Shown: positions 42,252-56,204 of the stretch, piece by piece
How the letters are laid out: each line of letters begins with the position of its first letter
Position numbering within the stretch: position 1 is the stretch's first letter
Source: Methanocaldococcus indicus
GTDB lineage: Archaea > AGJL01 > Methanococci > Methanococcales > Methanocaldococcaceae
Assembly (NCBI RefSeq): GCF_049554935.1
Contig: NZ_CP186926.1
Coordinates: 832,001-896,000 of the forward strand
Length of the DNA: 64,000 nt
Direction of reading: 5' to 3'
Translations under genes and position numbers: made by a program
Notes under the pieces: model-generated
Told to the model about the DNA's origin: nothing
Seen by the model: the letters and a program-made list of their open reading frames with translations, nothing else
Database searches by the model: none

Positions 42252-42307
42252 TGGCGCGGGGGCCGGGATTTGAACCCGGGTAGGGCGGTGCCCAACGGGA
42301 TTAGCAG
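42252..42307 (-). repeat. Attachment site: 3' half of tRNA-Ser(GCT) (anticodon loop through CCA), 5' half absent
   Basis: Reverse complement CTGCTAATCCCG...long variable arm...CCGGGTTCAAATCCCGGCCCCCGCGCCA; tRNA similarity stops exactly at the anticodon loop. Confidence 0.88.
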
Positions 42308-42557
42308 GAATGATATATAAGCCAACAATATAAAATTATAAAATAGCTTTTTTATCAGAAAATAAGCTTTATTATCAAATATTAGAGTAAGTCCAGTAAG
42401 GTTATAACGCTTTTTTATGTGAAATCTCAAAGGAAATTTTAGAGGACTCTATTTTTTGGATTACTACACTGCTGGACTAAAAAAATTAGTTATAAATAGA
42501 AATGTATAAATATATAAACCATTTAAAAATTTATTAAATCTGTAAATTGTGGTATCT

Positions 42558-42791
42558 ATGGATTGGATAAGCAAAGCCATTAAACACCCTGGTTCTTTAA
42601 GAAAGAAACTACATGGTCATTTAGGTAGAGTTATAATTGGTGCCACAAAAAAGCCAATTTTCACGAAATCTGGAGATATTAACATCAATACTTTGAAGCA
42701 GTTTAGGACCACACGAGCATATCATGAGTTAGATAAAATAACAAAACAGCAAATAAATCTTGCAATAACTCTCAGAAGAATAAGAAAGTGA
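42558..42791 (+). CDS. Fusellovirus VP2-like basic DNA-binding virion protein
   Basis: MDWISKAIKHPG...FTKSGDI...LAITLRRIRK matches, from recall, SSV1 VP2 (KWVQKAIKRPG...FTKDGDI...LAKRLKRM). Confidence 0.8.
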   Translation: MDWISKAIKHPGSLRKKLHGHLGRVIIGATKKPIFTKSGDININTLKQFRTTRAYHELDKITKQQINLAITLRRIRK

Positions 42792-43156
42792 TGATTATGG
42801 AGCTCAAATGTCCAGTTTGTAAAAGTAATTATATTATTTTTGATGAGAGGCATTATGAACTGTATTGCTTTACGTGTGGTTATGTAATTGAAGATCTTTC
42901 TCTTGTTTTAGAAATTAAATATGACAGGGAACTGAACAACTTAGATAAGGAAGTTAAATATAGAAGAATTAAGAAATATAAAGAAAGAAAGGCTATGAAG
43001 TTACTGGCAGAAAAATATGACAAGCTGGGATTACCGGATTACTATTTTTATAGGTTTATTGAGTACTGTCATAGGAAAGGAATAAAGAATAATAACATCA
43101 GCAGACACATGAAGAAGCTGTATAATGACTTTGTGAGAGAATGCTTAGAGAAATAG
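42788..43156 (+). CDS. TFIIB-type zinc-ribbon protein
   Basis: CPVC.....IFD....ELYCFTCGYVIED; basic helical C-terminus, no cyclin repeats recognised. Confidence 0.8.
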   Translation: MMIMELKCPVCKSNYIIFDERHYELYCFTCGYVIEDLSLVLEIKYDRELNNLDKEVKYRRIKKYKERKAMKLLAEKYDKLGLPDYYFYRFIEYCHRKGIKNNNISRHMKKLYNDFVRECLEK

Positions 43157-43195
43157 CAATTTTTTACTGTTGTCTTTCTTTATTTTTTGGTTTGT

Positions 43196-43406
43196 TGGGG
43201 ATATTAATATCCCCAGTAAGTACAATCCTTGGGGTATTATTGTATATTTTTACTATGTGTTCATTTTTTTTAAGTTTTATTTTTCTTATAATTCATAAAC
43301 TTAAATTTAAAAATTAAAATTTTTTACTCAAAGATTGCCGAGTTCAAAAATTTTCGGCAACTTTGCTTTTTTCCAGTCAAAAATTGCCGAGTTAGTGAAG
43401 TCGGCA
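43196..43406. repeat. Palindrome cluster: 20-bp perfect palindrome and two TGCCGA-n10/12-TCGGCA dyads
   Basis: TGGGGATATTAATATCCCCA at 43196-43215; TTGCCGA..TCGGCAA at 43335-43360; TGCCGA..TCGGCA at 43385-43406. Confidence 0.85.
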
Positions 43407-43455
43407 GTTATCTACATGATGTAAGCAACTTAGGGTTGATATTTGTTTTCCTTTA

Positions 43456-43467
43456 CTCTGAGGTTAC
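43456..43467 (+). promoter_or_regulatory. CTCTGAGGTTAC motif, copy 1 (putative viral promoter element)
   Basis: Same motif at 43886 and 48345, each followed by an AT-rich TATA-like box, SD and start codon. Confidence 0.65.
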
Positions 43468-43490
43468 TAAATACAATTGGAGGTGCAAAA

Positions 43491-43883
43491 ATGAACGCAT
43501 CAATGAGTGCATCACTGCACAATTTAGCCATACAGGCAATAGCAACTATACACTCTGCACTGAATCAGCCACAATTACCAATAAGAACGAAATTAGAGCT
43601 GATAATTGACAATACAAAATATCTATTGGCGATATCTTCAGCTCTTTTAGAAGAAGAAAAAATAAAAGAATTAAAATCTGACTTAGAAAAAGCAGAAAAG
43701 GCACTATTAAATTTTGAAAAAGTAGAATTAGATGAAAATGAACAAACAATAACAACATATTCTGAGATGCAAGCAAAAATTGAAAGGAAAATCAAAGAAC
43801 GTGAGAAATACATCATAGACACATGTTTGGAAATAGTATCTGAGATTATTAATGCCACAAAAGGGCAGATCTTCTGGCAGTGA
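43491..43883 (+). CDS. Hypothetical helical protein (ATG 43491)
   Basis: GGAGGTG SD at 43479-43485; coiled-coil-like composition. Confidence 0.75.
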   Translation: MNASMSASLHNLAIQAIATIHSALNQPQLPIRTKLELIIDNTKYLLAISSALLEEEKIKELKSDLEKAEKALLNFEKVELDENEQTITTYSEMQAKIERKIKEREKYIIDTCLEIVSEIINATKGQIFWQ

Positions 43884-43885
43884 TT

Positions 43886-43897
43886 CTCTGAAGTTAC
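43886..43897 (+). promoter_or_regulatory. CTCTGAAGTTAC motif, copy 2, upstream of the capsid gene
   Basis: Followed directly by TATATAATA and by the AGGTGA SD of the 43931 ORF. Confidence 0.65.
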
Positions 43898-43930
43898 TAT
43901 ATAATATAGAGTAGTTTAGGTGAGGCTGAA

Positions 43931-44437
43931 ATGCTTGCAATTGAAGAAATGTTAAGAAATGAGAAAGTAATGAACTATGTGGAAAGCTGGAAAGGAGTTA
44001 TTTCAAAAGATGCCTCTATGAGAAGAAATTTAGAATTGATAATAAGAGCAGTTCAAGGAGATAAAGAAGCTGAAGCTATTCTATTAGTAGATAATAGACC
44101 ACTTCCATTTGCTCCAAATATAACATATGCACAAATGAACAGTTTAGTTATTTTAACAGCAAGAAAAAGCTTAGAGAGGGTTCCAGCAACTGTGGATATA
44201 GCTGTTGCTGGTATTGTAATTTTGGTTGCTCTTATTATTGGAGTTTTAATAATGACACAGGTTAAAAGCACAGCTATGGCTGTGGCAACTGCGAATAATG
44301 ACACTGATGCTATAAACTTGATTAATAGTGTATTCAATACAGGAAAAGCAGGACTAATTATTTTAGCACTGTCAGTTCTCGTTTTAGGAGCTGTAGTTAT
44401 AATTGGATACTTGAGAGGTATTGGGGGAGGTAGATAA
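43931..44437 (+). CDS. Putative major capsid protein precursor, spindle-virus type
   Basis: Hydrophilic N-terminal half, then two hydrophobic helices (IAVAGIVILVALIIGVLIM; AGLIILALSVLVLGAVVIIGYL) joined by a polar linker with an NDT sequon; own promoter motif; VP2 nearby. Confidence 0.7.
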   Translation: MLAIEEMLRNEKVMNYVESWKGVISKDASMRRNLELIIRAVQGDKEAEAILLVDNRPLPFAPNITYAQMNSLVILTARKSLERVPATVDIAVAGIVILVALIIGVLIMTQVKSTAMAVATANNDTDAINLINSVFNTGKAGLIILALSVLVLGAVVIIGYLRGIGGGR

Positions 44438-44439
44438 AC

Positions 44440-44505: not shown

Positions 44506-44530
44506 GTTTATTTGATTTTTTTATTTTTTC
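44506..44530 (+). terminator. Oligo-T terminator after the capsid/protamine transcript
   Basis: GTTTATTTGATTTTTTATTTTTTC directly after the stop codon. Confidence 0.5.
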
Positions 44531-44572: not shown

Positions 44573-44887
44573 ATGATAAGCTTAACACTTTACATTCTTC
44601 TTTGGATTTTAGCGTTAATATTCTTTGGTGCAAGCTTTCTAACTTATGGAGGGAAAAGAATAATTTTCAATGTAATATCATTCATTCTATTCTTTATAAT
44701 TGCTTTAATAGTTGATGTTACTACAGTTCAGGCAATAGAAGTTAATAATACAATACAATATGCCAAAATACACATTGAAGGAGTCAGTATTTTTCAGTAC
44801 ATTAGTTGGATATTTCTAAGTATAACAATAATTAGAGGTATTCAGCACGCATATCTGACATTTTCAAGGTCAAGGGGGGATGAATAA
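44573..44887 (+). CDS. Small viral membrane protein (about 3 TM)
   Basis: Three hydrophobic segments; NNT sequon in a loop. Confidence 0.75.
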   Translation: MISLTLYILLWILALIFFGASFLTYGGKRIIFNVISFILFFIIALIVDVTTVQAIEVNNTIQYAKIHIEGVSIFQYISWIFLSITIIRGIQHAYLTFSRSRGDE

Positions 44888-45306
44888 TGGATGAGATTGA
44901 CGCACTGAGAGCACAGATTTTTTCTATGCTTAATCAATCAACACAAGAACAAACTCAACAATCTTTAAAAGACAATTTTGTTTATTTTGCAGCGGAAGCA
45001 TTTGAGATAGACAAGGAAACATTAAAAAAATATTGGGGTTTTCTCAACAAAGACATAACAACTACAAACATATCTGAAAAATACATAGAAGAGCTTAGAC
45101 TGTTAGCTACAGCTGTTTATCTTGAAGAGTATGAGACAATTCCTACTTCAGAATTAGCGGAAGACCACAACAGAAATTTTTGGAATCTTGATGTAGCAGT
45201 TTTAACAAGAGCAAGAAAATCTATTGGAGGATTTTTAATTAAGAAAGCAACTGAAAAACATATATCAATACAAGGTAGTGAAAGAGAGGAAAAAAAACTC
45301 TGGTGA
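44887..45306 (+). CDS. Hypothetical viral protein
   Basis: TAATG stop/start coupling; no family recognised. Confidence 0.75.
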   Translation: MDEIDALRAQIFSMLNQSTQEQTQQSLKDNFVYFAAEAFEIDKETLKKYWGFLNKDITTTNISEKYIEELRLLATAVYLEEYETIPTSELAEDHNRNFWNLDVAVLTRARKSIGGFLIKKATEKHISIQGSEREEKKLW

Positions 45307-45310: not shown

Positions 45311-46249
45311 ATGGGAAAAAGAGATACTGAAGTTTATAAATATATATCAGGAATTAAGGACATAAAAATACCAGCAATCTTTAAAATATTATTTCTCCCA
45401 ATATTTGGTATTTTTCTTTCCTTAATTGGTTTTTATTTACTTTATACTAAATACTATCATCTGAACATAATAATTTTTGGATTAATGATAATTATTTTTG
45501 GAATTTTGGCTCTTATTTTTATACTTATTAGAGCATATGCCCCAGAGTTTGTTCTTGAACTGATAAAAATTAAATTTTTCAGGAAGGCTAATGAATGTAT
45601 CATATTTTTTGTTGATGAACTAGGAATAATGGACACTTCAGTGGGTGAAATAGACTTTTCAGTTAGGGAAGTGAAAGATAAAGCAACAGGATTAAGATAT
45701 GAATTTTCAGATGAAGATGTTGTGTATTTCAATAGAGTTCCTGTCTTATTTGTCAGCGGGATTTCTGGAAGGGCAATTCCAGCTAAATATGTGAATTCTC
45801 TCAATTTACTGAAAGATTTGGGATTTAAGACTGTTAAGGATGTCAAGAGATTTATTGAAGAGCATGAGAAAAGAATAGGTGAGAAATTAAAAAGACTAAA
45901 CAAGTTAAAATCTGAGTACCAAGTTCTAAAAGACGAAAATATAAAATTAGAGATTGAGAAGTTGGAGAAAGAGTTAGAACAAGAAAGAAACTTAATAAAA
46001 GAAATTGAGGATGCCATATCAACGATTCCTGCACAAACAATGAAACTTAAGAATGTTGTTAAAGTTTTAGGAAATGAAAATCCTGAAATTAAGATGGCAA
46101 AAGCCCAGAGGTTTTATTTAGCAGGATATATCAGAGGACAGAAGGATGAGGGATTTATTCAAATTCTTAAGTGGATTACTATAATTGCAATAATTTTAGC
46201 AGCCCCGACAATAACATATGTTATTGTAAAAGCGATGGGCGGGTTATAA
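45311..46249 (+). CDS. Membrane protein with coiled coil (2 N-terminal TM, 1 C-terminal TM)
   Basis: Hydrophobic segments plus E/K heptad region. Confidence 0.75.
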   Translation: MGKRDTEVYKYISGIKDIKIPAIFKILFLPIFGIFLSLIGFYLLYTKYYHLNIIIFGLMIIIFGILALIFILIRAYAPEFVLELIKIKFFRKANECIIFFVDELGIMDTSVGEIDFSVREVKDKATGLRYEFSDEDVVYFNRVPVLFVSGISGRAIPAKYVNSLNLLKDLGFKTVKDVKRFIEEHEKRIGEKLKRLNKLKSEYQVLKDENIKLEIEKLEKELEQERNLIKEIEDAISTIPAQTMKLKNVVKVLGNENPEIKMAKAQRFYLAGYIRGQKDEGFIQILKWITIIAIILAAPTITYVIVKAMGGL

Positions 46250-46944
46250 TGCTTCCTAAGCTTGAAACTATTGACTTTTACACAGGAGAACGGATTGAAT
46301 ACATCACATATGATGAATTAGAATATATTTGCAATGGGTTATGGAGCCAGTATAGGATATTGGAAGGGAGAAAGTCAGGATATAGACTATTAAGAGCTTG
46401 CTTCATATTCTCATTTTTATTTTTTACAGGGGCGAGAATTACTGAATTTTTATTATCACAAAAATTCTGCATTGATTTTGAACAAATGAACTACTATATA
46501 CCGCAGTTAAAGAAAAAATACTGGAAGAAGCTTCCAGATGACCCTTACATTGACCCTTATGAGAGATTTGAAAACGGGTTAATTAAATATGTTGAAATTC
46601 CAATTGACCATACTCCAAAACACCATATAAAATATTGGAAAGAATGGCTAAAAAATAGAGATGAAGAAGATTTCTTAGTAGATATAAAAGAGAGACAAGT
46701 TAGAAATGTAATTTATAAGTATTCAAAAGAATATTTAGGGAGAAAAATACATCCACATGCCCTTAGACATTCATTAGGTGTTTATTTGACTAATGATTTA
46801 AAACTTCCAGCACAGGATGTTCAAAAAATCATGAGGCATACCAATCCCGATGTGACTTTTAGATACATAAGATTGAAAAATATTGATTTAAAGGAAAAAT
46901 TAAAGTCAGTAAAGGGCAGAGATAATGAAGAGCTGGATGACTGA
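46249..46944 (+). CDS. Tyrosine recombinase, catalytic domain only (likely start 46249)
   Basis: FTGARITE (R), LKK (K), HPHALRHS (HxxR), MRH, TFRY (Y); TAATG coupling to the upstream gene. Confidence 0.9.
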   Translation: MLPKLETIDFYTGERIEYITYDELEYICNGLWSQYRILEGRKSGYRLLRACFIFSFLFFTGARITEFLLSQKFCIDFEQMNYYIPQLKKKYWKKLPDDPYIDPYERFENGLIKYVEIPIDHTPKHHIKYWKEWLKNRDEEDFLVDIKERQVRNVIYKYSKEYLGRKIHPHALRHSLGVYLTNDLKLPAQDVQKIMRHTNPDVTFRYIRLKNIDLKEKLKSVKGRDNEELDD

Positions 46945-48331
46945 AATATACAGAACTTATAGGGAAGAGCAAGGGTTTCTAAACAGGTATGATTTGATTA
47001 AACACTGCATATTGTCAATTGCTGAACTAATATACCTCATATCCACGGGAGAGGTTAAATATCCTCCTCAGGAGATTTATAAAAGAATTACAAACTCTGC
47101 AAGAATCCTATGCGGATGGGCAAATATTTCATATGATAGTCAATTAGATACATTTGGAAATATAGCAAATGCTGTAAAACAGATTAGAAAACAAAATATT
47201 ATTTTTACACAGTTAGGAAAAGCAGATATTCTATTAAGAACAATTAAATATGTTATAGATGCTGTTAATACTACAGATTTGTATGAATTAAAGTATATAG
47301 CCTCTAATTATCTTTGGGCAGTGTCTAATATTGTGTATGATATTAAGGTAGAGAGACCACAAAAAGGGCAAAACATATCAGAATATATTGAGAATTTGAT
47401 AATTGATTATTATAAGCATAATGTATTGCCTAAACCCGTTGAGGTAAGATGGGTAGATTTAAAAAAAGACAATGAATTTGCAAAGACAACAATCTTTGAA
47501 GACATTTACACAAGAATTGAAAGAAATACAAATAACTTAATTTTCATAGAAGGAGAACATGGAGTTGGGAAGAGTTATACAGCACTCGCTTTAGCTATGG
47601 AAATAGACCCAGACTTTGAGCCAGAGAAGCAGATAGTTTTTGATATTCCGCAGTTTATAGAAAGATGCAATGACATGAAAAGAAAAAACCTAATTGGGAA
47701 AGTTATTATATTTGATGAGGTAGGAGCAGCGGCATCTGCTTTAACAAGCTGGGAATTTGAGAACATCTTATTTGATAGATATTTACAGCTTTTTAGGTAT
47801 CTGAGATTGACAGTAATTTTTACATCGAGAGATATCTCAGATACTATAAGGAGATTGAGAAAAAGAGTTACTCATTACATTGTCATGGAAGAACCGCAAA
47901 AATGTGAAATCTACAAAGTGAAAAGTAGATTTAACATTTCAAAAGACAAATTAGAAGTTGATTATGAGCCATACTACTATGAGGACGACTATAACATATA
48001 TCTATTGAAATTTAATGTTCCAAGAGTTTCAAAGGACATTGCAGAAGTCTATGAAAAACTAAGAGATAAGAATGTTACTTCAAAATACTTAGAGAAAATT
48101 GAAGAAGAAATTAAATTACTAAAGAATGACAAACTATTGTCAGATATGGCAAAGGAATTCATTGAAAAATACATAGAAGATGAAGAGGCATATATACAAA
48201 AAGGAAGAAGCAAAGGAAGGATTTCTACTGCTTATTTATCAGAAAAGTTTGGAATTGGTGAAAAAACAGCGAGAAAATTAAGAAACCTAATAGAAAAAAT
48301 GCTGGCTAAACAGCAAAATCAAGAAACATAA
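46925..48331 (+). CDS. P-loop ATPase, putative packaging/assembly ATPase
   Basis: GEHGVGKS Walker A, IIFDE Walker B, D...LR.R arginine-finger-like motif; possible C-terminal HTH. Confidence 0.8.
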   Translation: MKSWMTEIYRTYREEQGFLNRYDLIKHCILSIAELIYLISTGEVKYPPQEIYKRITNSARILCGWANISYDSQLDTFGNIANAVKQIRKQNIIFTQLGKADILLRTIKYVIDAVNTTDLYELKYIASNYLWAVSNIVYDIKVERPQKGQNISEYIENLIIDYYKHNVLPKPVEVRWVDLKKDNEFAKTTIFEDIYTRIERNTNNLIFIEGEHGVGKSYTALALAMEIDPDFEPEKQIVFDIPQFIERCNDMKRKNLIGKVIIFDEVGAAASALTSWEFENILFDRYLQLFRYLRLTVIFTSRDISDTIRRLRKRVTHYIVMEEPQKCEIYKVKSRFNISKDKLEVDYEPYYYEDDYNIYLLKFNVPRVSKDIAEVYEKLRDKNVTSKYLEKIEEEIKLLKNDKLLSDMAKEFIEKYIEDEEAYIQKGRSKGRISTAYLSEKFGIGEKTARKLRNLIEKMLAKQQNQET

Positions 48332-48378: not shown

Positions 48379-48750
48379 TTGCAAGTTCAATATGTAATTT
48401 ATATAGCTTATTTGGCATATTTGGCTTATGAAGATTATAAATATAAATCAATTAGAGTCATTGATGGAGCATTATTTTCATTAATTTTCACAATTATAAA
48501 TCCTGAAAATGTTCTAATCTCAATAATCTTTGCTTTAATGTTGTATGTCCTTAGATTGTATGGAATTGGAGATGTGTTCGTAGTTATAGCTACTGTTTCA
48601 ATGTTTGGGATTGATGGGATATTCGTGGTTTTAATCTCATTGCTCTTAGCATATGTCTTTGGAATCATTATTAGAAATAAAAAGATTCCGTACATTCCAA
48701 TGCTTCTTGTTGGTGTTATATCATGGCAGTTGCTCCAGCTATCTATCTGA
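48379..48750 (+). CDS. Minimal A24 (prepilin/class III signal) peptidase
   Basis: AYEDYKYKSI first Asp, GIGD second Asp (GxGD), IPYIP C-terminal motif, multi-TM. Confidence 0.8.
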   Translation: MQVQYVIYIAYLAYLAYEDYKYKSIRVIDGALFSLIFTIINPENVLISIIFALMLYVLRLYGIGDVFVVIATVSMFGIDGIFVVLISLLLAYVFGIIIRNKKIPYIPMLLVGVISWQLLQLSI

Positions 48751-48968
48751 TTATTGAATTTATAATTATAGCTATTGTGTATTGGATGGTTACTCCAGTT
48801 TTTAATTATTTTATACAATTAGCCCAGATAAACGGGTGGACTCCTGAAGTTACGAGTGTTATAGTCTGGGTTTGGAAATTATTTCCACTAATTTTGATAT
48901 TTGGAACAATAATAGGATATTTCCTTTGGGTCTCAAGAAAAGATGTCACTTCAGGACCAATAGTGTGA
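48723..48968 (+). CDS. Small two-helix hydrophobic protein, possible minor capsid (VP3-like)
   Basis: 81 aa, two hydrophobic helices with a short linker. Confidence 0.55.
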   Translation: MAVAPAIYLIIEFIIIAIVYWMVTPVFNYFIQLAQINGWTPEVTSVIVWVWKLFPLILIFGTIIGYFLWVSRKDVTSGPIV

Positions 48969-48972: not shown

Positions 48973-51471
48973 ATGAAAAAAATAATCTTCACAATACTAC
49001 TTACTGTACTGTTAGCTTCTGTTTATTGCAGTGATTTCAAGTACTACAAAGACTTTATTTTTTATTCTAAATCTTCAGGAGAAGGTGTTTATTATGTAAC
49101 TCTAAATGTTTCTGGGGAACCGGTATCCACTGATTGGTATAGGAAAATAAGTGTATATGATTTAGACAATAATATCACACTAAAAAAATATGTTGCAATT
49201 ATAAATAATACAACAGTTAGAGTGTATTTTCTAAAAAATTGGAAAAAAGGTTTAAATTTTGTTAGAGTTTATTATGATAGTGATATAATTACAGAAGTTC
49301 CAGATAGTCCAGATATATTCACATTTATTGATGATTTTGAAAATTCAACAAAATTTAAAGTGTTAGAAGGAAATGTATCTTACTATTTTAAGAACTCAAC
49401 TATAACAATTAATTCTACTACATTATCTAAACTTTCACCAAATCTCTCAGTTTCTGGAAATTATACAATTTCTTGTAAAATTGTAAATTTTACAGTTCAG
49501 AGTTACCCATATTGGATTGAGGATACTGGCTCTAACTATTACATTTGGACAAAGGTAAATATCAGTGCAAATTCAAACATTACATTGTATATCAAAAAAG
49601 TGGATGGTTATCATCCAGATGGAGATAGTGTTTTCTTGTTTTTTGATGATTTTGATGCGGATAGTTTAAACAACAGTATATGGAGTGTATATGGAACGTC
49701 ATCAACGACAGTAGACATCGTAGATGGCTGGCTTAGATTACATCCAGATAAGGAAAATAGCAATATAGGAGTAAAGCATTACTGTTCTTATTCAAATGTT
49801 AGAATTGGCATAAAATACAATTATGTTGCTGGAGATGGATGTGAAATTCCTTATTTGGATATAGATGGGAACAAAATTTCTCTTCCAAAGACAAGCTATC
49901 CAAATGATTCTGCGACTGGAACTCAAATTCATTATTATGAAACCGGAAGATTATCAATATCATCATATATTGGATTGCTACAAAGTAGAGCAGGGTGGGA
50001 TGGTGAAACAAGATTCGATTACATCTTCGTTAGAAAATACGCAGACAAAGAACCAACGGTTTCAGTTGAGCAAATATCCACAGATACTTGGAAAGTTACC
50101 ATAACAAACCCTAACGATTATGATTTAACTGACTTCCAAGTAAAAATAAATGGAACTGGGATTGTTAATTCAAAAACAGATAGTTTATTAATAAGTAACT
50201 ATAATGGAATATTTTTTGCCAACGAAACAGTTCCAAGTTATCTAGGAATAATTGACATTGATGTTTATAACAATACATTCATAGCTACAAAAAACAATGA
50301 AGAAATTATAAAAACTGGCGTTATTAACAATACAACAGGTATTTTTGGAATATCTCTTTTAGGTAGTGCAACATACGATTGGTTTTTAGTTTATAAAAAA
50401 TTCCCTGTGTTACTCATTGCAACTTCATCAAATTACACAACTGAATTAATTAACAAAACAATTACATTATATAATGAAAATAACAAAACAACATATTTTT
50501 ACTCAAAATTAGATAAAATAGATAGTAATCTAACATTAATATTCTCAAATGGTTTAGTATCAAAAATATACACAATAACACCAGAAAACTATAATTCTAC
50601 ACTGAATCTTGAAGTTCCAGTTTTTGGGGAATTGACTGTTATATATAATGGATGGGTTAGAAAATTCAGCTATGGTATGTATGATGAAAATATAAACGTA
50701 ATTATCCCAACAAGTGATGTAGTGTCTTGGTATATAAGACTTGATAAAACTTCTGATGTAAGAATTGAAGATACCTCTGGAAACGTGCTTTCAGAGTATA
50801 AAAATACATTAGGATTTGAATTTCCAGCAATAGTTGGGAGAACATACAGAATATATATAAATGGAAAATTAAAGGATGAAAAAACAGCAATCTCTAATGA
50901 GTATGTTTATTATCAGACATCAGGTAATGTTGGAGAATTAACGATAGTTAATAATGTCTCTATACCTCAATCTGTAGATTTAATTTATAATTCAATATAC
51001 AAAAATGGCACAATTAATATTAATTATTCAATATTACAAAATGTTGAAACTTCAATAAAAATAGAAATCTACGATGATACAGGAAAGTTATTATATAACA
51101 CAACTGTTCAGGCAAGTAATCAGATTAATTCTCTCAAAGTTTATGTTGGAAATTCTTCAACATATTATAGAGTTGTTTTAACAACTGCAGACGGAAAGAA
51201 ATATGTTTCTTTAGTTTATACACCTAACTCTACAAATACTGGATTTTCTCTTTTAGAAAATTGGAAAAAGTGGATTAGTATATTGATATTGTTCATTACA
51301 TTAGTTACGTTCTCATATATTGATATTGAAGCTGGGACAATAGCAACAATCTCTATGATGCTATTTTTAGAACTAATTGGTTTCTTAGATTGGATGGATA
51401 TAAAACTAAAGTCAGTTCTATTCTTCCTTCTTCTGGTACCTCTTGGACTTAAAATAAAGAGGGGATGGTGA
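48973..51471 (+). CDS. Large secreted, membrane-anchored DUF2341-domain glycoprotein (putative adhesin/tail)
   Basis: Signal peptide; YWIE..IWTKV..TLY..VFLFFDDF DUF2341 pattern; many NxS/T sequons; three C-terminal TMs. Confidence 0.75.
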   Translation: MKKIIFTILLTVLLASVYCSDFKYYKDFIFYSKSSGEGVYYVTLNVSGEPVSTDWYRKISVYDLDNNITLKKYVAIINNTTVRVYFLKNWKKGLNFVRVYYDSDIITEVPDSPDIFTFIDDFENSTKFKVLEGNVSYYFKNSTITINSTTLSKLSPNLSVSGNYTISCKIVNFTVQSYPYWIEDTGSNYYIWTKVNISANSNITLYIKKVDGYHPDGDSVFLFFDDFDADSLNNSIWSVYGTSSTTVDIVDGWLRLHPDKENSNIGVKHYCSYSNVRIGIKYNYVAGDGCEIPYLDIDGNKISLPKTSYPNDSATGTQIHYYETGRLSISSYIGLLQSRAGWDGETRFDYIFVRKYADKEPTVSVEQISTDTWKVTITNPNDYDLTDFQVKINGTGIVNSKTDSLLISNYNGIFFANETVPSYLGIIDIDVYNNTFIATKNNEEIIKTGVINNTTGIFGISLLGSATYDWFLVYKKFPVLLIATSSNYTTELINKTITLYNENNKTTYFYSKLDKIDSNLTLIFSNGLVSKIYTITPENYNSTLNLEVPVFGELTVIYNGWVRKFSYGMYDENINVIIPTSDVVSWYIRLDKTSDVRIEDTSGNVLSEYKNTLGFEFPAIVGRTYRIYINGKLKDEKTAISNEYVYYQTSGNVGELTIVNNVSIPQSVDLIYNSIYKNGTININYSILQNVETSIKIEIYDDTGKLLYNTTVQASNQINSLKVYVGNSSTYYRVVLTTADGKKYVSLVYTPNSTNTGFSLLENWKKWISILILFITLVTFSYIDIEAGTIATISMMLFLELIGFLDWMDIKLKSVLFFLLLVPLGLKIKRGW

Positions 51472-51869
51472 TGAACTATTCAAAATATCTTCTATTTATT
51501 GTTACTGTAAATATGATAATTCCTCTGTTATCCACGTCATATGACATAAATTATAACTCTGGAATAATGCAGATGTTTCAATCAACACTATTTAATGTTC
51601 AGAGCAGTATAGAATCATTCTTTAGTTCAGAAAAATTTTCAGCTATTGATGCTGCTTTTGCTTCTGTTTCTCTTATTGTGAATGGTGCCCTTCTCATAAT
51701 TCAATTAGTTGCATTTGGTCCTCTACTTACTGCTAATGTTATCAATACTATAGCTGGATTTACCCCAATAGTTCAGCCACTTACATCAATATTTACAATA
51801 ATATCTTACTTGGCATATGTTATGATAATTTGGGACATATTCTTTAGAAATAAAACTCTAACAATGTGA
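51465..51869 (+). CDS. Viral membrane protein
   Basis: Several hydrophobic helices; overlaps both neighbours. Confidence 0.7.
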   Translation: MVMNYSKYLLFIVTVNMIIPLLSTSYDINYNSGIMQMFQSTLFNVQSSIESFFSSEKFSAIDAAFASVSLIVNGALLIIQLVAFGPLLTANVINTIAGFTPIVQPLTSIFTIISYLAYVMIIWDIFFRNKTLTM

Positions 51870-52252
51870 AAAGTGAAAATATGGAAAATATAACTCTTCC
51901 AAATTCTACTGAGATTGTCACTCCAGTTGCAAATTTTACAAATTCAACAATATTAAACACTCTTAAAAATACAAGCGTTTCACATCCCCTTGATTTCTAC
52001 TATAATCTAACCCATTCATTTTTTGAAGCTGGTTTTGGAAATTACTGGGTTTTCATCATTTGGTTTGTTCCTACTGTTACGATTGCCATAAGAACAAAAA
52101 ATCCTGCACATATTGCGTTCGTATCTGCTCTTACTTCAGCAGGAACTGCAACTCTTTCTTCGTCTGGACCTATTCAATATCTTATGATATTCATAACTAT
52201 CATCTCAGTGATTTCTGCAATTGCATACTATTACTACTCTGGAACTGGGTGA
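51866..52252 (+). CDS. Viral membrane protein with N-terminal sequon-rich region
   Basis: NIT/NST/NFT/NTS/NLT sequons followed by about 3 TMs. Confidence 0.7.
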   Translation: MKSENMENITLPNSTEIVTPVANFTNSTILNTLKNTSVSHPLDFYYNLTHSFFEAGFGNYWVFIIWFVPTVTIAIRTKNPAHIAFVSALTSAGTATLSSSGPIQYLMIFITIISVISAIAYYYYSGTG

Positions 52253-52257
52253 GCAAA

Positions 52258-53196
52258 ATGTTCCTTCTATTATGTCTCTCAAGAAAATGCAACTTAAATT
52301 GCATTGGCTGTCATGCACACAAATCAGATGAATTAGTACATGAAAACAATCTAAAATTTTTTAAAAGAGCTTTAATCCATACTTTACAACAATACAGACC
52401 AAGAGAAATATGTTTTCATGGTGCTGAAACATTTGTTTGTTCTGAGACAGTCTTAAAAGAAGTCTTAGAAATCATTAACAAATACAAGATAAAAGAAGCT
52501 AAACTAAGTTGCATGTCAAATGGAACTTTAGTTACTGAAAAAAAATACAACTTAATGAAACAGTTTGGGGTATGTGTAAATATCAGTTACAGAGGACCAG
52601 AAGACTTATACAAAAAGATAACCAGAACAGATACTTATGCTGACTGGTTAGAAGGAATTTACTTAGTAAAACCTAAATCAACAATTTTCTATTATCCAAC
52701 AGAATTAGAGGATGAGATTTTGAATAGATACAAAGAGATTGTTGATGATATTGTTGATAAGGGATTCAAATCTGTAAGATTTTCTGAATATTGCTCATCA
52801 ACTCCAAATAAAAGACATTCTGAGTTTGTAATCAAATGTCAAAAATATATAATTAAGATGGGATATGATTTGCAGATACCTGAAATAGTTGATTTATTGA
52901 AGAGAATACAAGGATTGCAGCCAAAAATGAGTTGTAGTTGGGAACATAATTGTATGCAGTTCTTCTGCTTACAACCAAATGGTAAAATGACTTTCTGTAA
53001 TAGGAATATGAAGTCATATAGAGCATTTTATAAAGAATGCTATAGTTGTGAGGCTTATCCATTTTGTAAAGGAGGATGCGAAGCCGTTAGAGAGAAAAAT
53101 GGAGGAATATTCCCATATTGTGATGATAGAAGGAAAATAGTCAGATATGTTAGAGAGAATTACTTTGATTTGGCTTCATATTATGACATTATGTAA
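52258..53196 (+). CDS. Radical SAM/SPASM-domain enzyme (peptide-maturase-like); likely start 52258
   Basis: CNLNCIGC, FHGAE, SNGT; SPASM cysteines C..C..FC..CYSC.....CKGGC..C; GGTGA SD before the ATG. Confidence 0.88.
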   Translation: MFLLLCLSRKCNLNCIGCHAHKSDELVHENNLKFFKRALIHTLQQYRPREICFHGAETFVCSETVLKEVLEIINKYKIKEAKLSCMSNGTLVTEKKYNLMKQFGVCVNISYRGPEDLYKKITRTDTYADWLEGIYLVKPKSTIFYYPTELEDEILNRYKEIVDDIVDKGFKSVRFSEYCSSTPNKRHSEFVIKCQKYIIKMGYDLQIPEIVDLLKRIQGLQPKMSCSWEHNCMQFFCLQPNGKMTFCNRNMKSYRAFYKECYSCEAYPFCKGGCEAVREKNGGIFPYCDDRRKIVRYVRENYFDLASYYDIM

Positions 53197-53205
53197 GGAG
53201 ATACT

Positions 53206-53694
53206 ATGATTATTGCCTTAGAAGGGCATCACAGAAGTGGAAAGACAACATTATCTAAGGCATTAGAGGAGTATGGTTTTATCAGAGTAAGAGAATACCT
53301 ATCAAAGTATAGAGTTCTAAGAGCTGATAGGCAGTTGGATGATTGTTCAGTATTCAAAGAAATTCTTGATAATAATGTTTATCAGTATGAACTCTACAAA
53401 GACTGTTATGTAGTATTTGACAGAAGCATATATGATATTTACATTGCAGCTTTCATTTGTTGCAAACCAGCAGCATTTGAAGAATTCAACAGATATTTCA
53501 ACAGAACTACTAAGAAAATCAGGTATGATTACTTAATTTGGTTAGAAGAGTTACATCCTCCTCAGTCTGGCATAGAATATACATTCAATACATTATGCCG
53601 TTGGAAAATCAAACCCATTTGTAATGTTATTTTGCCCGCAACAACAGTTGAAGACAGAATAAAACAATTGATAGGGATAATATGCAAAGAATGA
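53206..53694 (+). CDS. NMP-kinase-like P-loop protein (thymidylate kinase/AAA_28-like)
   Basis: IALEGHHRSGKTT, VFDRS; GGAGA SD. Confidence 0.8.
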   Translation: MIIALEGHHRSGKTTLSKALEEYGFIRVREYLSKYRVLRADRQLDDCSVFKEILDNNVYQYELYKDCYVVFDRSIYDIYIAAFICCKPAAFEEFNRYFNRTTKKIRYDYLIWLEELHPPQSGIEYTFNTLCRWKIKPICNVILPATTVEDRIKQLIGIICKE

Positions 53695-56204
53695 AATTGA
53701 AAAAAACATTTGAAGACAATTTGATTGTTGAGCAAAAACTACAAAGGCTGAAGTTTTGGACATGGACTGATGACCCTTCTTATTCTGACAACTGGAGTCA
53801 TTATGATACTCCTGGAGCTTCTGGGGCAGCATACGGTGATTATGCAGACCATTCTGATTATTCTGATAGCCAGTATTCAGATAGTAGCAGCAATGGAACA
53901 ATAAATTCCAAAACATCAGCAAAAACATCAGCAGTAACTGTTGGGAAAATTGAGTATTCCAATGATGGAAAAGTCTATGTTAAAGATAACAATGGCAACA
54001 TTATAACAGTTACAAATAGACAAAATCTATCTTCTGCTTTACAAAGACTTGCCAGTAAAGGGATTATAGATAAAAATTATTCAGAATTCTATACCCCAGC
54101 AGGAACAAGGGTTATAATCCAAGGAGGTAAAGTATCACTTCCAGCAGTAATGGACAATCCAAAACCTCAAGATAATACATCCAACAAAAATAAGACAATA
54201 AACAAAAACTCGTCTGATTTGGAACAATACTTCCAAGTGTCAAAACCTAATCCATCCAAAGTATCCAATGTTGCTCCTGTTGTTACTAAGAGTGATTTAC
54301 CAAAATATGCAACAATTGAAAGTATTTTAGCTCCACCACAGACCCCTGATGTTGCTGTAATTCAACAACAATATAATAATAAAATAATGACAGCTGATGA
54401 AGCTGTTAAAAAATTCTATAATGAAAATAAGGACATATTATATTATGATGAAGGAAGACAGGAAATTGATAATATAGAAAGAAAAATTATTGAGGTCCCA
54501 ACTGCTATTGGGAAAAAATATGGTGGAATTGTTGGAGGAACAATTGGAGCAACAGTTGGAAAGTTAGCAGCGGGAGGGGTAGAGCTTATCGCTGGAACTG
54601 GTTGGGCTATTGGAACAGCTGCTGCTAAAAAATCATTTGAACCAATAAAAACAGAAGCTACAATAATCACTGATGGTGCGCTATCTCCATTTGATTCTAT
54701 TGGAAAGGCATTAGATTATATTGCTGGATATAAAAAACCAACTGAAGATGATATTATTGATGTAACATCAGATATACTTACTTTGGCACCAATCCCTATA
54801 ATAGATATAAAAGCTAAGTTTCAAAATCTGGATTCTTTAAAAACTAAAAATGTCATAAATTATGATGATTCTCTAAAAACCACAAAACAAACACCAATAC
54901 ATATCTCAAAATATATGTTAGATGAACCACCAACTCCAAAGCCAAATATGGTTGATGTTATTGGTGATAAGTATCAGCTATCTACCAACATTCTTGAATC
55001 TGGAGTAGAAAAAACAAAAGTTAGGTTTGGAGACAAAGTTTTAGAGGCTGAGAAATCTCCACAGGTAGAGGTAATTAGAAAAACTGATTTCTCAGTTGGA
55101 AGAGTTCAAGAAGTTAGGAAAACAAAGGATTCTATGTATGTTGTTGATATAGACTTATCTAAGCTAATTCCAGAGCAGAGAATTGTCCAAATATCAAAAA
55201 ATGGTGCAAAACAGATAACAAAAGGAAGAAACTACATATTTACATCTGAAATAAATTCTAAAGGTATAAGTAAATATGTCTCTGGACAAAATGGATTTAT
55301 TAGAACCAAATCCCAAATTACAGATATGTTATTTGATGACTCAAAACCATATAATCCTCCAAAACCACATCTAATTGATAACATTGAACATAACCATAAA
55401 TTCTTTGAAAGTAAAAAACCTAAACACAGCCCAATAGATGCTCCAAAACAGGACTTTGATATCCCACCAATTCAAATAATAGAGGAAGAACCTAAAAGCA
55501 GGCAAAAACCCAAACTAAATCCAGGCGGGGGCAGAATAATCTTTGCTTCAGATTTACTAAAGAAATTAGATGAAGTTAGTGGAGAGGCTAAAAGTGCTGG
55601 CTCTAAAACTTCACAACAATTGCTCCAAATTGAAAAAACCAAGACTGAAACTAAATCCTCTACAAAATTAGATGTTATTGAAAAGCCTAAACAAGTTGCA
55701 AAGGAAATGGAAAATAGCAAAAATAAAGTAAAAGAAAATGAGTTGGAGAAAAAAATAAAAAAACAGATGACTGAAATTGGAATATTCCCTCTCTACAGAG
55801 TAGATATATTTAACTTCCCAGTTGAAAAGGAAAAAGCAAGAAGGGGAATTTTCCACTACCCTGTTGTTGGACAGAAGGAAGATATTGTTCCTACAATTGC
55901 TAAAGCCACTCCTACACTTATTAAGAGAAAAACTAAATTAGGACAGATTACACCTAAAACTAAATTAAAACAGATTATACCTAAAAGTAGAACAGAAATT
56001 GCAAGTATTACAGAAGAATACCATCCAATCACTAGAACTAGTATTGCTACTTATCCCTCTGTTAAAACCTCCATAATCACTACACCTGAAATAAAAATAG
56101 TAGCCCCAATCCCAAAAATTCCTAAAATTAAATTGTATGGTGTAACTGGCTATAGCTCCAAATTTTTAAAATCTAAATGGAAAAAATTAGTTACCTGGCT
56201 CTAA
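53691..56204 (+). CDS. Large (about 837 aa) protein with N-terminal W/Y/H-x-D repeats, Gly-zipper segment and basic Pro-rich tail
   Basis: ATGA overlap with the kinase stop (alternative start 53682); WTD/YSD/HYD/YGD/YAD/HSD/YSD/YSD; GGIVGGTIGATVGKLAAGG. Confidence 0.85.
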   Translation: MKLKKTFEDNLIVEQKLQRLKFWTWTDDPSYSDNWSHYDTPGASGAAYGDYADHSDYSDSQYSDSSSNGTINSKTSAKTSAVTVGKIEYSNDGKVYVKDNNGNIITVTNRQNLSSALQRLASKGIIDKNYSEFYTPAGTRVIIQGGKVSLPAVMDNPKPQDNTSNKNKTINKNSSDLEQYFQVSKPNPSKVSNVAPVVTKSDLPKYATIESILAPPQTPDVAVIQQQYNNKIMTADEAVKKFYNENKDILYYDEGRQEIDNIERKIIEVPTAIGKKYGGIVGGTIGATVGKLAAGGVELIAGTGWAIGTAAAKKSFEPIKTEATIITDGALSPFDSIGKALDYIAGYKKPTEDDIIDVTSDILTLAPIPIIDIKAKFQNLDSLKTKNVINYDDSLKTTKQTPIHISKYMLDEPPTPKPNMVDVIGDKYQLSTNILESGVEKTKVRFGDKVLEAEKSPQVEVIRKTDFSVGRVQEVRKTKDSMYVVDIDLSKLIPEQRIVQISKNGAKQITKGRNYIFTSEINSKGISKYVSGQNGFIRTKSQITDMLFDDSKPYNPPKPHLIDNIEHNHKFFESKKPKHSPIDAPKQDFDIPPIQIIEEEPKSRQKPKLNPGGGRIIFASDLLKKLDEVSGEAKSAGSKTSQQLLQIEKTKTETKSSTKLDVIEKPKQVAKEMENSKNKVKENELEKKIKKQMTEIGIFPLYRVDIFNFPVEKEKARRGIFHYPVVGQKEDIVPTIAKATPTLIKRKTKLGQITPKTKLKQIIPKSRTEIASITEEYHPITRTSIATYPSVKTSIITTPEIKIVAPIPKIPKIKLYGVTGYSSKFLKSKWKKLVTWL

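What the first reader, a model, noticed from the sequence alone, without database searches (positions are those of the whole stretch)
42252..56204. Spindle-shaped (fusellovirus-like) provirus in a hyperthermophilic methanogen, with an SSV1 VP2 homologue and MCM replication
Seen: att at the tRNA-Ser(GCT) anticodon loop, then a co-oriented ~13.6-kb block with a VP2-like basic protein, a two-helix capsid precursor, a second small two-helix protein, an ATPase, several membrane proteins and a glycosylated adhesin. No terminase, portal or HK97-type genes were recognised. Known: VP2 and two-helix capsid proteins are hallmarks of spindle-shaped viruses, and MCM-bearing integrated elements occur in Methanococcales. 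Inference: an apparently intact morphogenesis module of a little-sampled virus lineage; all ORFs are uninterrupted.
Basis: partly seen in the sequence, partly recalled or inferred. Interest (0 to 1): 0.78.

Follow-up and report, generated by a model that had tools for sequence, protein, structure and literature searches.

The report
Virus-like integrated element in a methanogen
A 27-kb mobile element sits in a serine tRNA gene of a heat-loving methanogen and carries two genes otherwise typical of spindle-shaped archaeal viruses, so it is probably a provirus of an undescribed family, although its coat protein is not proven.

Summary
The att fragment, the co-oriented gene block, the VP2 homologue and the ATPase are real. 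The element is twice as long as reported. A 55/56-identical repeat of the tRNA-Ser(GCT) 3' half lies 26.7 kb downstream, beyond the window, in an intact tRNA next to a XerA-like integrase. The unit (~26.8 kb) includes MCM.

It belongs to a small family found in 4 of 40 Methanococcales genomes. One member is a free 27,218-bp replicon titled plasmid pMP-1.

Homology tested:
- VP2 is true (78.7 bits in the sister replicon, 24.7 bits here).
- The ATPase matches SSV1 B251, His1 ORF16 and lemon-shaped virus LSV-48N (hhalign 94-98%). It does not match the pT26-2-family ATPase (1%).
- The pT26-2 family, the obvious known rival, shares only MCM, integrase and an acylphosphatase-like gene.
- The two-helix "capsid precursor" belongs to a new family (28 representatives in 1.84 billion proteins) with no detectable homology to any known capsid protein. 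My positive control also failed, so this stays open.

New here: a conserved prepilin-type (A24) peptidase and a second recombinase inside the module.

Verdict: probably a provirus of an undescribed, fusellovirus-related lineage (0.55). An integrative plasmid remains a serious rival.

The parts
42252..42307 (-). attL: 56-bp copy of the 3' half of tRNA-Ser(GCT), from the anticodon loop to the CCA end
   Evidence: 55/56 identical to the intact tRNA at G000:C1:900992-901047. No tRNA is called here.
42558..42791 (+). VP2-like small basic protein (77 aa from the ATG; the ORF list starts it at GTG 42549)
   Evidence: PF25632 E 3.2e-5, 24.7 bits, below the cut-off of 27. phrog_15706 E 7e-9. SSV1 VP2 41%/46 aa, E 7e-8. 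A two-sequence profile with the sister copy hits SSV1 VP2 at E 7e-16 among 128 proteins.
42788..43156 (+). TFIIB-type zinc-ribbon protein, likely transcription factor
   Evidence: PF08271 E 2.7e-11. Homologue in the G009 element, 39%.
43443..43883 (+). 146-aa helical/coiled-coil protein directly upstream of the hairpin protein
   Evidence: Conserved position in 4 of 4 elements. No family.
43931..44437 (+). Two-helix hydrophobic hairpin protein with N-terminal extension: candidate major structural protein precursor
   Evidence: Alignments A1 and A5: TM1, conserved N-D-T sequon, TM2, Gly-rich tail. AF2 places helices at 89-121 and 125-165. 28 representatives in 1.84 billion proteins. No hit to a known capsid family.
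44573..44887 (+). 104-aa three-helix membrane protein
   Evidence: Syntenic in 4 of 4 elements.
44887..45306 (+). 139-aa soluble core protein, unknown function
   Evidence: tblastn 78%, 38% and 34% in G009, G014:C2 and G032.
45311..46249 (+). 312-aa membrane protein with central coiled coil
   Evidence: Alignment A6. No significant match to PAV1 ORF293 or the pMEFER01 216-aa protein.
46171..46944 (+). Second tyrosine recombinase inside the module, directly upstream of the ATPase
   Evidence: PF00589 E 1e-11. XerA-like E 3e-11. R...HxxR...H...Y is visible in the translation. Present in 4 of 4 elements.
46925..48331 (+). AAA+ ATPase of the SSV1 B251 / His1 ORF16 / LSV-48N type
   Evidence: hhalign 95.4%, 93.6% and 98.3%. 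phrog_5484 E 7e-12. 1% to the pMEFER01 ATPase.
48379..48750 (+). Small A24-type (prepilin/leader) aspartyl peptidase
   Evidence: PF01478: the G014:C2 copy scores 35 bits (cut-off 26.5), the G032 copy 19.2 bits, the window copy 9.1 bits. D19, G64-D65, P104 and P107 are invariant in 4 of 4.
48723..48968 (+). 81-aa two-helix membrane protein
   Evidence: 64%, 40% and 31% in the three relatives.
48973..51471 (+). 832-aa secreted, sequon-rich DUF2341/lectin-like protein with C-terminal membrane helices: candidate host-recognition protein
   Evidence: PF10102 E 4e-10. 31 sequons. The model has confident beta-sandwich domains. BFVD matches are to phage fibre, baseplate and BIG2 proteins at low TM.
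51465..52252 (+). Two small membrane proteins (134 and 128 aa)
   Evidence: Conserved after the large protein in the relatives.
52060..53694 (+). Cargo found only in this copy: radical SAM/SPASM enzyme plus P-loop kinase-like protein
   Evidence: PF04055 E 1e-11 and AAA_28. Weak pVip matches. Absent from G009, G014:C2 and G032.
53682..56204 (+). 840-aa low-complexity large protein, last gene of the module
   Evidence: Weak homologues in 2 relatives and an ORF of like size in the same slot in all three. No family or structure match.
56262..62249 (-). Variable region: acylphosphatase-like gene, PD-(D/E)xK-like and unknown genes, PDC-M19 A/B candidate defence pair (59242-60512)
   Evidence: The acylphosphatase-like protein is 70% identical to that of pMEFER01.
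62413..64000 (-). MCM helicase, 730 aa, cut by the window end (runs to window-equivalent 64605)
   Evidence: PF00493 E 2e-74 on L001:413-2605. Beyond the window lie two wHTH regulators, DUF2540, the 328-aa XerA-like integrase (67870-68856 equivalent) and the intact tRNA (68992-69079 equivalent).

Best explanation
This is an intact, integrated copy of a temperate or chronic virus-like element of an undescribed family of Methanococcales. It is distantly related to spindle-shaped viruses in at least two morphogenesis genes.

Shown:
- A XerA-like tyrosine integrase lies next to an intact tRNA-Ser(GCT). A 55/56-identical copy of the tRNA's 3' half bounds the other end, ~26.8 kb away.
- A sister element exists as a free 27.2-kb replicon with the same module plus MCM.
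- The conserved module encodes a VP2-family DNA-binding protein, a B251/His1-ORF16/LSV-48N-type AAA+ ATPase and a hydrophobic two-helix hairpin protein with an N-terminal extension and a conserved N-D-T sequon.
- The module also encodes an A24 leader peptidase, a second recombinase, a sequon-rich lectin-like membrane-anchored large protein and several small membrane proteins.

Inferred:
- The circle replicates with its own MCM.
- The hairpin protein is inserted in the membrane, trimmed by the element's peptidase and glycosylated.
- It then forms a spindle-like or pleomorphic coat around VP2-bound DNA with the help of the ATPase.
- The 832-aa protein recognises the host.
- Particles leave without lysis.
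For: 1. Boundaries and unity of the element.
- The att repeat is 55/56 identical, and the intact tRNA sits 135 bp from a 328-aa integrase.
- The G032 copy lies next to an intact tRNA-Ser(TGA) beside its integrase; a 13-base exact match to part of the tRNA lies just past the last module gene, ~20 kb away. It carries integrase, MCM and module in the same order.
- G014:C2 is a whole 27,218-bp contig. A record of the same length and match coordinates is titled plasmid pMP-1, complete sequence.

2. Family.
- The ATPase is in 4 of 40 Methanococcales genomes.
- The hairpin profile is in the same 4 of 40.
- The 12-gene synteny is conserved.

3. VP2.
- The sister copy scores 78.7-80 bits on PF25632 and is 47-51% identical to fusellovirus VP2 over 92-97% of its length.
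- There it lies directly after the hairpin gene, as VP2 follows VP1-VP3 in SSV1.
- PF25632 matches 2 of 40 genomes, both in this family.

4. ATPase.
- hhalign gives 98.3% (242 columns) to LSV-48N, 95.4% to SSV1 B251 and 93.6% (251 columns) to His1 ORF16.
- A recombinase gene is adjacent, as in SSV1 and LSV-48N.

5. Hairpin protein.
- Its architecture resembles the SSV1 VP1 precursor: a hydrophilic N-part, two hydrophobic helices and a sequon in the loop.
- The ESM Atlas look-alikes score 0.92-0.93 and are clusters labelled 88-92% viral. The nearest named clusters are VP1_VP3 (0.85) and His1_capsid (0.82). These are leads only.

6. A preprint on Thermococcales spindle viruses describes hairpin capsid proteins, lectin-domain membrane proteins, many membrane proteins and exchangeable MCM modules (passages of PMC12934983).
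Against: - The hairpin family has no detectable sequence relation to known capsid proteins. hhalign gives 1.8% to SSV VP1/VP3, 0.7% to His1 VP21, 0.5% to PAV1 ORF121 and 9.4% to an LSV-48N 166-aa protein.
- It has no Pfam or PDB hit. Foldseek gives nothing at E <= 0.001.
- The same set-up also fails on the accepted pair SSV VP1/VP3 versus His1 VP21 (6.6%) and versus PAV1 ORF121 (0.2%). The negative therefore has little power.
- VP2 relatives also occur in icosahedral and tailed viruses, so VP2 does not point to a spindle shape.
- The free sister replicon is titled a plasmid.
- No IMG/VR contig holds the ATPase or the distant hairpin group.
- A 6.56-kb plasmid in the same strain carries a hairpin gene without the rest of the module.
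- The A24 peptidase, together with [KR]G before helix 1 in 11 of 32 family members, fits a pilin-like substrate as well.
- Other fusellovirus core families (B277, C166, DUF5493, DUF5494) were not found.
- No particles, circles or expression data are available.
Confidence: 0.55

Rival explanations
1. An integrative plasmid, not a virus. On this reading the conserved module builds a membrane or pilus-like apparatus for cell-to-cell DNA or protein transfer, or for surface modification. The hairpin protein would be a pilin-like subunit matured by the element's A24 peptidase. VP2 and the ATPase would be genes shared with viruses.
For: - The free relative is titled a plasmid.
- An A24 leader peptidase is conserved in 4 of 4 elements.
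- [KR]G precedes helix 1 in 11 of 32 hairpin-family members.
- No capsid homology is detectable.
- The hairpin gene also sits on a 6.56-kb plasmid.
- Authors proposed a transfer apparatus for the analogous pT26-2 module (PMC6972569, section 8).
- There are no IMG/VR relatives.
Against: - No PilB/FlaI, VirB4, FtsK/HerA or TraG-type ATPase and no PilC/FlaJ platform was found in the Pfam, NCBIfam or PDB scans.
- The only ATPase belongs to the family conserved in three groups of spindle-shaped viruses.
- In my searches VP2 relatives were found only in viruses; passages of PMC4158269 add one putative provirus.
- In Methanococcales VP2 was found only in this family.
- Type IV pilins have one hydrophobic helix plus a globular domain (recalled). 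Here there are two helices and no globular part.
Confidence: 0.3
2. A defective or domesticated remnant. The element integrated once and no longer excises or makes particles. The host keeps it for its cargo (defence pair, radical-SAM pair).
For: - One mismatch in the att repeat.
- Cargo genes include PDC-M19 A/B and a radical-SAM plus kinase pair inserted in the module.
- The window's VP2 and peptidase copies score far below their sister copies.
- Gene order next to attL is not conserved in 7 of 7 genus relatives examined.
Against: - All 12 module ORFs are open and match the lengths of their homologues in three other elements.
- Both recombinases keep Pfam-recognisable catalytic domains.
- Near-identical sequence is held by two further runs from another study, with 85% and 77% of sampled words.
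Confidence: 0.1
3. A member of the pT26-2 plasmid family. That family's Methanococcales members integrate at tRNA-Ser, use type II integrases and often carry MCM.
For: - The element shares the tRNA-Ser target, a XerA/XerC-like integrase next to att, MCM and a size of 17-38 kb (PMC6972569, Table 3 passages and section 13).
- An acylphosphatase-like gene is 70% identical to that of pMEFER01.
Against: - tblastn of all element ORFs against pMEFER01 at E <= 0.01 finds only the acylphosphatase-like gene, MCM (with its antisense shadows) and 46 aa of integrase. None of the conserved-region genes match.
- hhalign of the ATPase profile against the pMEFER01 ATPase gives 1%.
- The 312-aa protein against the pMEFER01 216-aa protein gives 53% over only 22 columns.
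Confidence: 0.03

Closest known systems
Fuselloviridae (SSV1 and relatives)
   Same: - VP2 homologue, lying directly after the hairpin gene in the sister replicon.
- B251-type AAA+ ATPase next to a tyrosine recombinase.
- Small hydrophobic two-helix protein made with an N-terminal extension.
- Large sequon-rich ~800-aa protein.
- Circular genome that integrates in a tRNA gene.
   Different: - No detectable VP1/VP3 homology.
- The integrase is XerA-like and stays intact next to att, rather than splitting as SSV-type integrases do (type definitions from PMC6972569 section 13).
- No B277, C166, A82 or C84 families.
- MCM replication, an A24 peptidase, a euryarchaeal methanogen host, and 27 kb against 15 kb.
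Haloferax lemon-shaped virus LSV-48N
   Same: - Best ATPase match: hhalign 98.3% over 242 columns and tblastn E 5e-9.
- Integrase close to the ATPase.
- 25-kb circular genome that exists both free and integrated.
- Two >800-aa proteins.
- The authors found no recognisable capsid protein by sequence (passages of PMC12714723).
   Different: - Halophile host.
- No other gene matches at hmmsearch E < 0.001.
- No MCM or VP2 is annotated.
His1 (Halspiviridae)
   Same: ATPase ORF16 homologue, hhalign 93.6% over 251 columns. Small two-helix capsid protein architecture.
   Different: Linear genome with a protein-primed polymerase. No VP21 homology.
Thermococcales spindle-shaped viruses (PAV1, TPV1 and the proposed families of PMC12934983)
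   Same: - Deep-sea hyperthermophile euryarchaeal hosts.
- Hairpin capsid protein followed by a run of membrane proteins and lectin-like large proteins with membrane helices.
- Exchangeable MCM modules and integrases.
   Different: - No sequence match to any PAV1 protein at BLASTP E <= 0.01.
- ATPase against PAV1 ORF375 matches the P-loop only, 44%.
- TPV1 was not fetched.
pT26-2 plasmid family (pMEFER01 tested)
   Same: tRNA-Ser target, type II integrase, MCM, acylphosphatase-like gene, and many membrane proteins plus one ATPase in a conserved block.
   Different: The conserved blocks are unrelated at BLAST and profile level.

Membership tests
Fuselloviridae | VP1/VP3-type major capsid protein (PF06281) | tested here: inconclusive
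   No PF06281 hit for 32 of 32 family members at E <= 0.1. hhalign A5 vs SSV VP1/VP3 gives 1.8%. The same method gives only 6.6% for SSV VP1/VP3 vs His1 VP21, so it lacks power.
Fuselloviridae | VP2 DNA-binding protein (PF25632; optional even within the family, recalled) | tested here: met
   Window copy 24.7 bits, below the cut-off. Sister copy 78.7-80 bits. 47-51% identity to fusellovirus VP2.
Fuselloviridae | B251-type AAA+ ATPase | tested here: met
   hhalign 95.4%, E 1.7e-8, 119 columns. BLASTP 25% over 142 aa.
Fuselloviridae | SSV-type integrase whose gene is split by integration | tested here: not met
   An intact 328-aa XerA-like integrase lies 135 bp from the intact tRNA.
Fuselloviridae | Other core genes (B277, C166, A82/DUF5493, C84/DUF5494) | tested here: not met
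   These Pfam families recognise SSV1. None was found in the element's ORFs.
pT26-2 plasmid family | Seven core genes t26-5p, 6p, 7p, 11p, 13p, 14p, 15p in a conserved region | tested here: not met
   Tested against one member only, pMEFER01. No tblastn match at E <= 0.01 outside MCM, integrase and the acylphosphatase-like gene. ATPase hhalign 1%.
pT26-2 plasmid family | Methanococcales branch: type II integrase, att in the 3' part of tRNA-Ser or tRNA-Leu, often MCM | tested here: met
   Definition from PMC6972569 section 13 and Table 3.
Thermococcales spindle-shaped virus families | Hydrophobic alpha-hairpin capsid protein | tested here: inconclusive
   The architecture is present. There is no sequence relation to PAV1 ORF121. 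That ORF121 is the PAV1 capsid protein is recalled.
Thermococcales spindle-shaped virus families | Two lectin-domain proteins with membrane helices in the core | tested here: inconclusive
   One such protein is present (832 aa, DUF2341, C-terminal helices). The second large protein (840 aa) shows no lectin domain or helix.
Type IV pilus or conjugative (VirB/Ced-like) apparatus | A24 prepilin peptidase | tested here: met
   PF01478 at 35 bits in G014:C2. Both Asp are invariant in 4 of 4.
Type IV pilus or conjugative (VirB/Ced-like) apparatus | PilB/FlaI or VirB4/HerA-type ATPase and a PilC/FlaJ or VirB6 platform | tested here: not met
   No such family was found in the Pfam, NCBIfam, PHROGs or PDB scans of the module.

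The most novel reading that the evidence does not exclude
This would be the first genome-level view of a spindle-shaped (or related membrane-coated) virus lineage of Methanococcales. It would link crenarchaeal fuselloviruses, haloarchaeal lemon-shaped viruses and vent euryarchaea through VP2 and the B251-type ATPase. It would use its own new hairpin coat-protein family. That protein would be matured by a virus-encoded prepilin-type peptidase, a processing route not described for any virus coat protein. A 6.56-kb plasmid in the pMP-1 strain, carrying only the coat gene plus replication genes, would be its satellite.
Probability: 0.3. Interest if true: 0.8.

Novelty: new variant of a known kind. 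Interest (0 to 1): 0.62.

Why it matters
Only one virus of hyperthermophilic methanogens, the head-tailed MFTV1, is mentioned as characterised in the passages I read (PMC9796341). The old Methanococcus A3 particles have no genome-level description there.

- An intact, inducible candidate in a cultured strain, with a free sister replicon in another strain, would give a tractable virus-host pair for Methanocaldococcus.
- The element shows that the Methanococcales pool of MCM, integrase and tRNA-Ser modules serves at least two unrelated kinds of conserved module: the pT26-2 type and this one.
- The hairpin family plus a dedicated A24 peptidase offers a direct test of how spindle-virus-like coat proteins and pilins relate.

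Tried and rejected
**Tests that gave nothing**
- HMMER profile searches of the hairpin family against PDB sequences and Pfam: nothing.
- AF2 model of the hairpin protein (pLDDT 66) with Foldseek against PDB: only generic helical bundles with E >= 1.5.
- hhalign against VP1/VP3, His1 VP21, PAV1 ORF121 and an LSV-48N 166-aa protein: negative. The positive controls also failed.
- 832-aa ectodomain model (pLDDT 69) against BFVD: 65 matches at E <= 0.001, all low-TM multi-beta-sandwich phage fibre or baseplate-like proteins. PAV1 and TPV1 are not among the 50 listed.
- PDB sequence searches with the 832-aa and 840-aa proteins: nothing.
- ESM Atlas for the 840-aa protein: nothing usable.
- tblastn of the 832-aa protein against plasmids and phages, and of the hairpin protein against phages: no match.
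- IMG/VR scans with the ATPase profile and with the distant hairpin group: no relative.

**Inconclusive or uninformative checks**
- pT26-2 membership: rejected.
- The own plasmid C2 shares only MCM and a little integrase with the element.
- The G017 element at tRNA-Ser(TGA) shares only the integrase (30%) and a P-loop-level ATPase match.
- CRISPR: the 10 arrays I detected in G000 hold no spacer against the four elements. The 19.7-kb DNA search of 40 genomes listed no perfect spacer-sized match. 106 matches were not listed.
- Empty-site test: in 7 of 7 genus relatives examined, the gene left of attL is not followed by a tRNA-Ser or by the right-flank gene within ~1.5 kb. Local order is not conserved, so the test is uninformative.
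- Runs: no RNA holder was listed.
- Literature: searches found no paper describing this family, pMP-1, a VP2 homologue in Methanococcales, or a virus-encoded prepilin peptidase acting on a coat protein. For these I saw listings only, apart from the passages cited elsewhere in this report. Supplementary files were not seen. Those of PMC6972569 and PMC12934983 could list related elements.

Full report

Window 42252-42307 reads, on the minus strand, as the 3' half of a tRNA-Ser(GCT): anticodon loop, variable arm, T arm and CCA end. Neither ARAGORN nor Rfam calls a tRNA there, as expected for a fragment.

The window is G000:C1:832001-896000. In the whole genome ARAGORN finds one tRNA-Ser(GCT), at C1:900992-901079 on the minus strand. 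That is window-equivalent 68992-69079, about 5 kb beyond the window. Its first 56 bases match the fragment at 55 of 56 positions, and similarity stops exactly there.

It also moves the right boundary. The unit between the repeats is 26.7 kb, or ~26.8 kb with them, not 13.6 kb.

Beyond 56204 the element continues on the minus strand:
- an acylphosphatase-like gene;
- a PD-(D/E)xK-like protein and proteins of unknown family;
- a DUF488 protein with its partner, which match the candidate defence pair PDC-M19 A/B;
- a 730-aa MCM.

Then, on the plus strand, come two winged-helix regulators, small ORFs, a DUF2540 protein and a 328-aa XerA/XerC-like integrase that ends 135 bp from the intact tRNA.

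**2. The element is one unit and belongs to a small family**

The ATPase of the block occurs in 4 of 40 Methanococcales genomes, G000 included. With a four-sequence profile there are still only four strong matches. The rest are one P-loop-level match and several matches to a ~60-residue C-terminal stretch. The hairpin-protein profile finds the same 4 of 40 genomes.

The three relatives are:
- **G009:C16.** An integrated copy with 57-82% protein identity for most genes (26-41% for four), also ending in a tRNA-Ser fragment.
- **G032:C66.** A ~20-kb copy next to an intact tRNA-Ser(TGA), with a 13-base exact match to part of the tRNA just past its last module gene. It has integrase, MCM, acylphosphatase-like gene and module in the same topological order.
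- **G014:C2.** A complete 27,218-bp contig with the module and MCM.

Their titles are "Methanocaldococcus sp. 16A plasmid pMP-1, complete sequence" and a Methanothermococcus MAG. The family therefore exists both free and integrated, and module plus MCM plus integrase travel together.

In the large protein collections the family is rare. The ATPase has 13 clusters among 5.8 billion, G000's own included. The hairpin protein has 28 representatives at E <= 0.001 among 1.84 billion. Two further sequencing runs from another study hold 85% and 77% of the sampled words of window 42300-52200. This shows presence only.

**3. The conserved module**

The gene order in all four elements is as follows:
- a coiled-coil protein;
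- the hairpin protein;
- a 3-helix membrane protein;
- a ~140-aa soluble protein;
- a ~310-aa membrane and coiled-coil protein;
- a tyrosine recombinase;
- the ATPase;
- an 80-aa membrane protein;
- a ~830-880-aa DUF2341 protein with a signal peptide and C-terminal helices;
- two small membrane proteins;
- a ~750-840-aa protein.

- The recombinase inside the module hits PF00589 at E 1e-11, and its R...HxxR...H...Y residues are visible in the translation.
- A small multi-helix protein is an A24 leader peptidase. The G014:C2 copy scores 35 bits on PF01478 (cut-off 26.5), the G032 copy 19.2 bits and the window copy only 9.1 bits. The four proteins nevertheless align with an invariant first Asp, an invariant G-D of the GxGD motif and a P-x-x-P motif. 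The motif names are recalled.

In G000 alone a radical-SAM/SPASM enzyme and a P-loop kinase-like protein are inserted before the last gene.

**4. What is homologous to what**

*VP2.*
- The window protein is sub-threshold on PF25632 (24.7 bits). It aligns with SSV1 VP2 from the first residues, 41% over 46 aa.
- The G014:C2 copy is unambiguous. It scores 78.7-80 bits and is 47-51% identical to fusellovirus VP2 over 92-97% of its length.
- In G014:C2 it follows the hairpin gene directly. In SSV1 and SMF1 the order is VP1, VP3, VP2.
- The family also has relatives in STIV1/2 and in Thermus phages (passages of PMC4158269). It marks a virus, not a spindle shape.

*ATPase.*

| Compared with | hhalign probability | Columns |
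|---|---|---|
| LSV-48N ATPase | 98.3% | 242 |
| SSV1 B251 | 95.4% | 119 |
| His1 ORF16 | 93.6% | 251 |
| PAV1 ORF375 | 44% | P-loop only |
| pMEFER01 ATPase | 1% | - |

*Hairpin protein.*
- It has no Pfam, PDB or PHROGs family.
- hhalign finds no link to VP1/VP3, His1 VP21 or PAV1 ORF121.
- Because such proteins are short and hydrophobic, I ran the accepted pair as a control. SSV VP1/VP3 against His1 VP21 gives 6.6%, and against PAV1 ORF121 0.2%. The test cannot see even known relations with the shallow alignments I could build, so I score homology as inconclusive.

What remains for the hairpin protein is architecture and context:
- two helices (89-121 and 125-165) in the model;
- a nearly invariant N-D-T in the connecting loop and a Gly-rich tail;
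- a variable N-terminal extension;
- [KR]G just before helix 1 in 11 of 32 members. By eye, R-[VL]-[PA]-[AG] occurs in 7 of 32, including the window copy;
- language-model look-alikes that are small proteins of clusters labelled 88-92% viral. The nearest named clusters are the two spindle-virus capsid families. These scores (0.82-0.85) count as leads only.

**5. The known rival, pT26-2**

Badel et al. (PMC6972569; I read sections 8 and 13 and passages) describe 17-38-kb elements of Thermococcales and Methanococcales. They have seven core genes. In Methanococcales they also have type II integrases, tRNA-Ser targets and often MCM. This fits the outer features of the element.

I fetched pMEFER01, a named member. 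The element shares with it only three things: MCM (37%), the acylphosphatase-like gene (70%) and 46 residues of integrase. None of the conserved-region genes match by tblastn, hmmsearch or hhalign. The element is therefore not a pT26-2 member. It draws on the same pool of replication, integration and accessory genes.

**6. Best reading and its limits**

I read the element as an intact provirus-like element of a new family related to spindle-shaped viruses, with confidence 0.55. The morphology (spindle or pleomorphic) is inferred only.

The integrative-plasmid reading, with a pilin-like hairpin protein, keeps 0.3. Four points support it:
- the A24 peptidase;
- the plasmid title of the sister replicon;
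- the lack of IMG/VR relatives;
- a 6,562-bp plasmid, assembled as a dimer in G014:C3, that carries a hairpin gene 51% identical to the window's together with a weakly AEP-primase-like gene and nothing else of the module.

Against that reading, no pilus or conjugation ATPase or platform protein is present.

**7. Novelty**

My searches found no description of this family, of pMP-1, or of VP2 in Methanococcales. They also found no virus-encoded prepilin peptidase acting on a coat protein (listing only).

I rate it a new variant of a known kind: a temperate spindle-virus-like element. It has a new structural-protein family and a new host group.

Noticed in passing
window 52060-53694: A radical-SAM/SPASM enzyme (378 aa; weak viperin-like and peptide-maturase matches) and a P-loop kinase-like protein (162 aa) are inserted between module genes. 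They occur in this copy only and are absent from G009, G014:C2 and G032.
   Followed up: partly
window 59242-60512: A DUF488 protein and its 259-aa neighbour match the candidate defence pair PDC-M19 A/B (E 4e-36 and 2e-41) inside the element's variable region.
   Followed up: no
window 56262-56744: The acylphosphatase-like gene is a multi-copy gene of Methanococcales. There are many places at 74-86% DNA identity, several per genome, including plasmids. A second copy lies at G000:C1:449647-450019, and the pMEFER01 protein is 70% identical.
   Followed up: partly
window 60555-60905: The 116-aa ORF with a C-terminal membrane helix also belongs to a repeated family, with many 68-87% DNA matches across the order.
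   Followed up: no
L038 (G014:C3:1-13123): The contig is a head-to-tail dimer of a 6,562-bp unit (99.985% self-identity). Each unit has a hairpin-protein gene 51% identical to the window's, a 104-aa ORF, a 1049-aa ORF and a 426-aa protein that is weakly AEP-primase-like. It may be a satellite of pMP-1.
   Followed up: partly
G000:C2 (22,187-bp second contig) and G000:C1 near 401004-401144: The plasmid-sized contig has an MCM (43% identical to the element's), three ORFs over 1000 aa and a 4-repeat CRISPR-like array. A stretch just beyond the repeats called at C1:401004 (either a further spacer or flank) matches the plasmid at 35 of 37 bases.
   Followed up: no
L026+L027 (G017:C1:205001-245000): Another element lies next to tRNA-Ser(TGA), with a 337-aa integrase (30% identical to this element's), an 838-aa and a 1232-aa protein and a 357-aa ATPase. 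The ATPase matches the module ATPase only around the P-loop. It may be a pT26-2-type element, but this was not established.
   Followed up: partly
window 41528-42166 and its flank: The 212-aa gene left of attL is conserved (~90% aa) in 7 of 7 genus relatives examined, but its downstream neighbours differ among them. They map to distant parts of G000, so this is a rearrangement-prone spot.
   Followed up: partly
window 42788-43156: A TFIIB-type zinc-ribbon protein is encoded at the start of the module. It is conserved in G009 and may be an element-encoded transcription factor.
   Followed up: no
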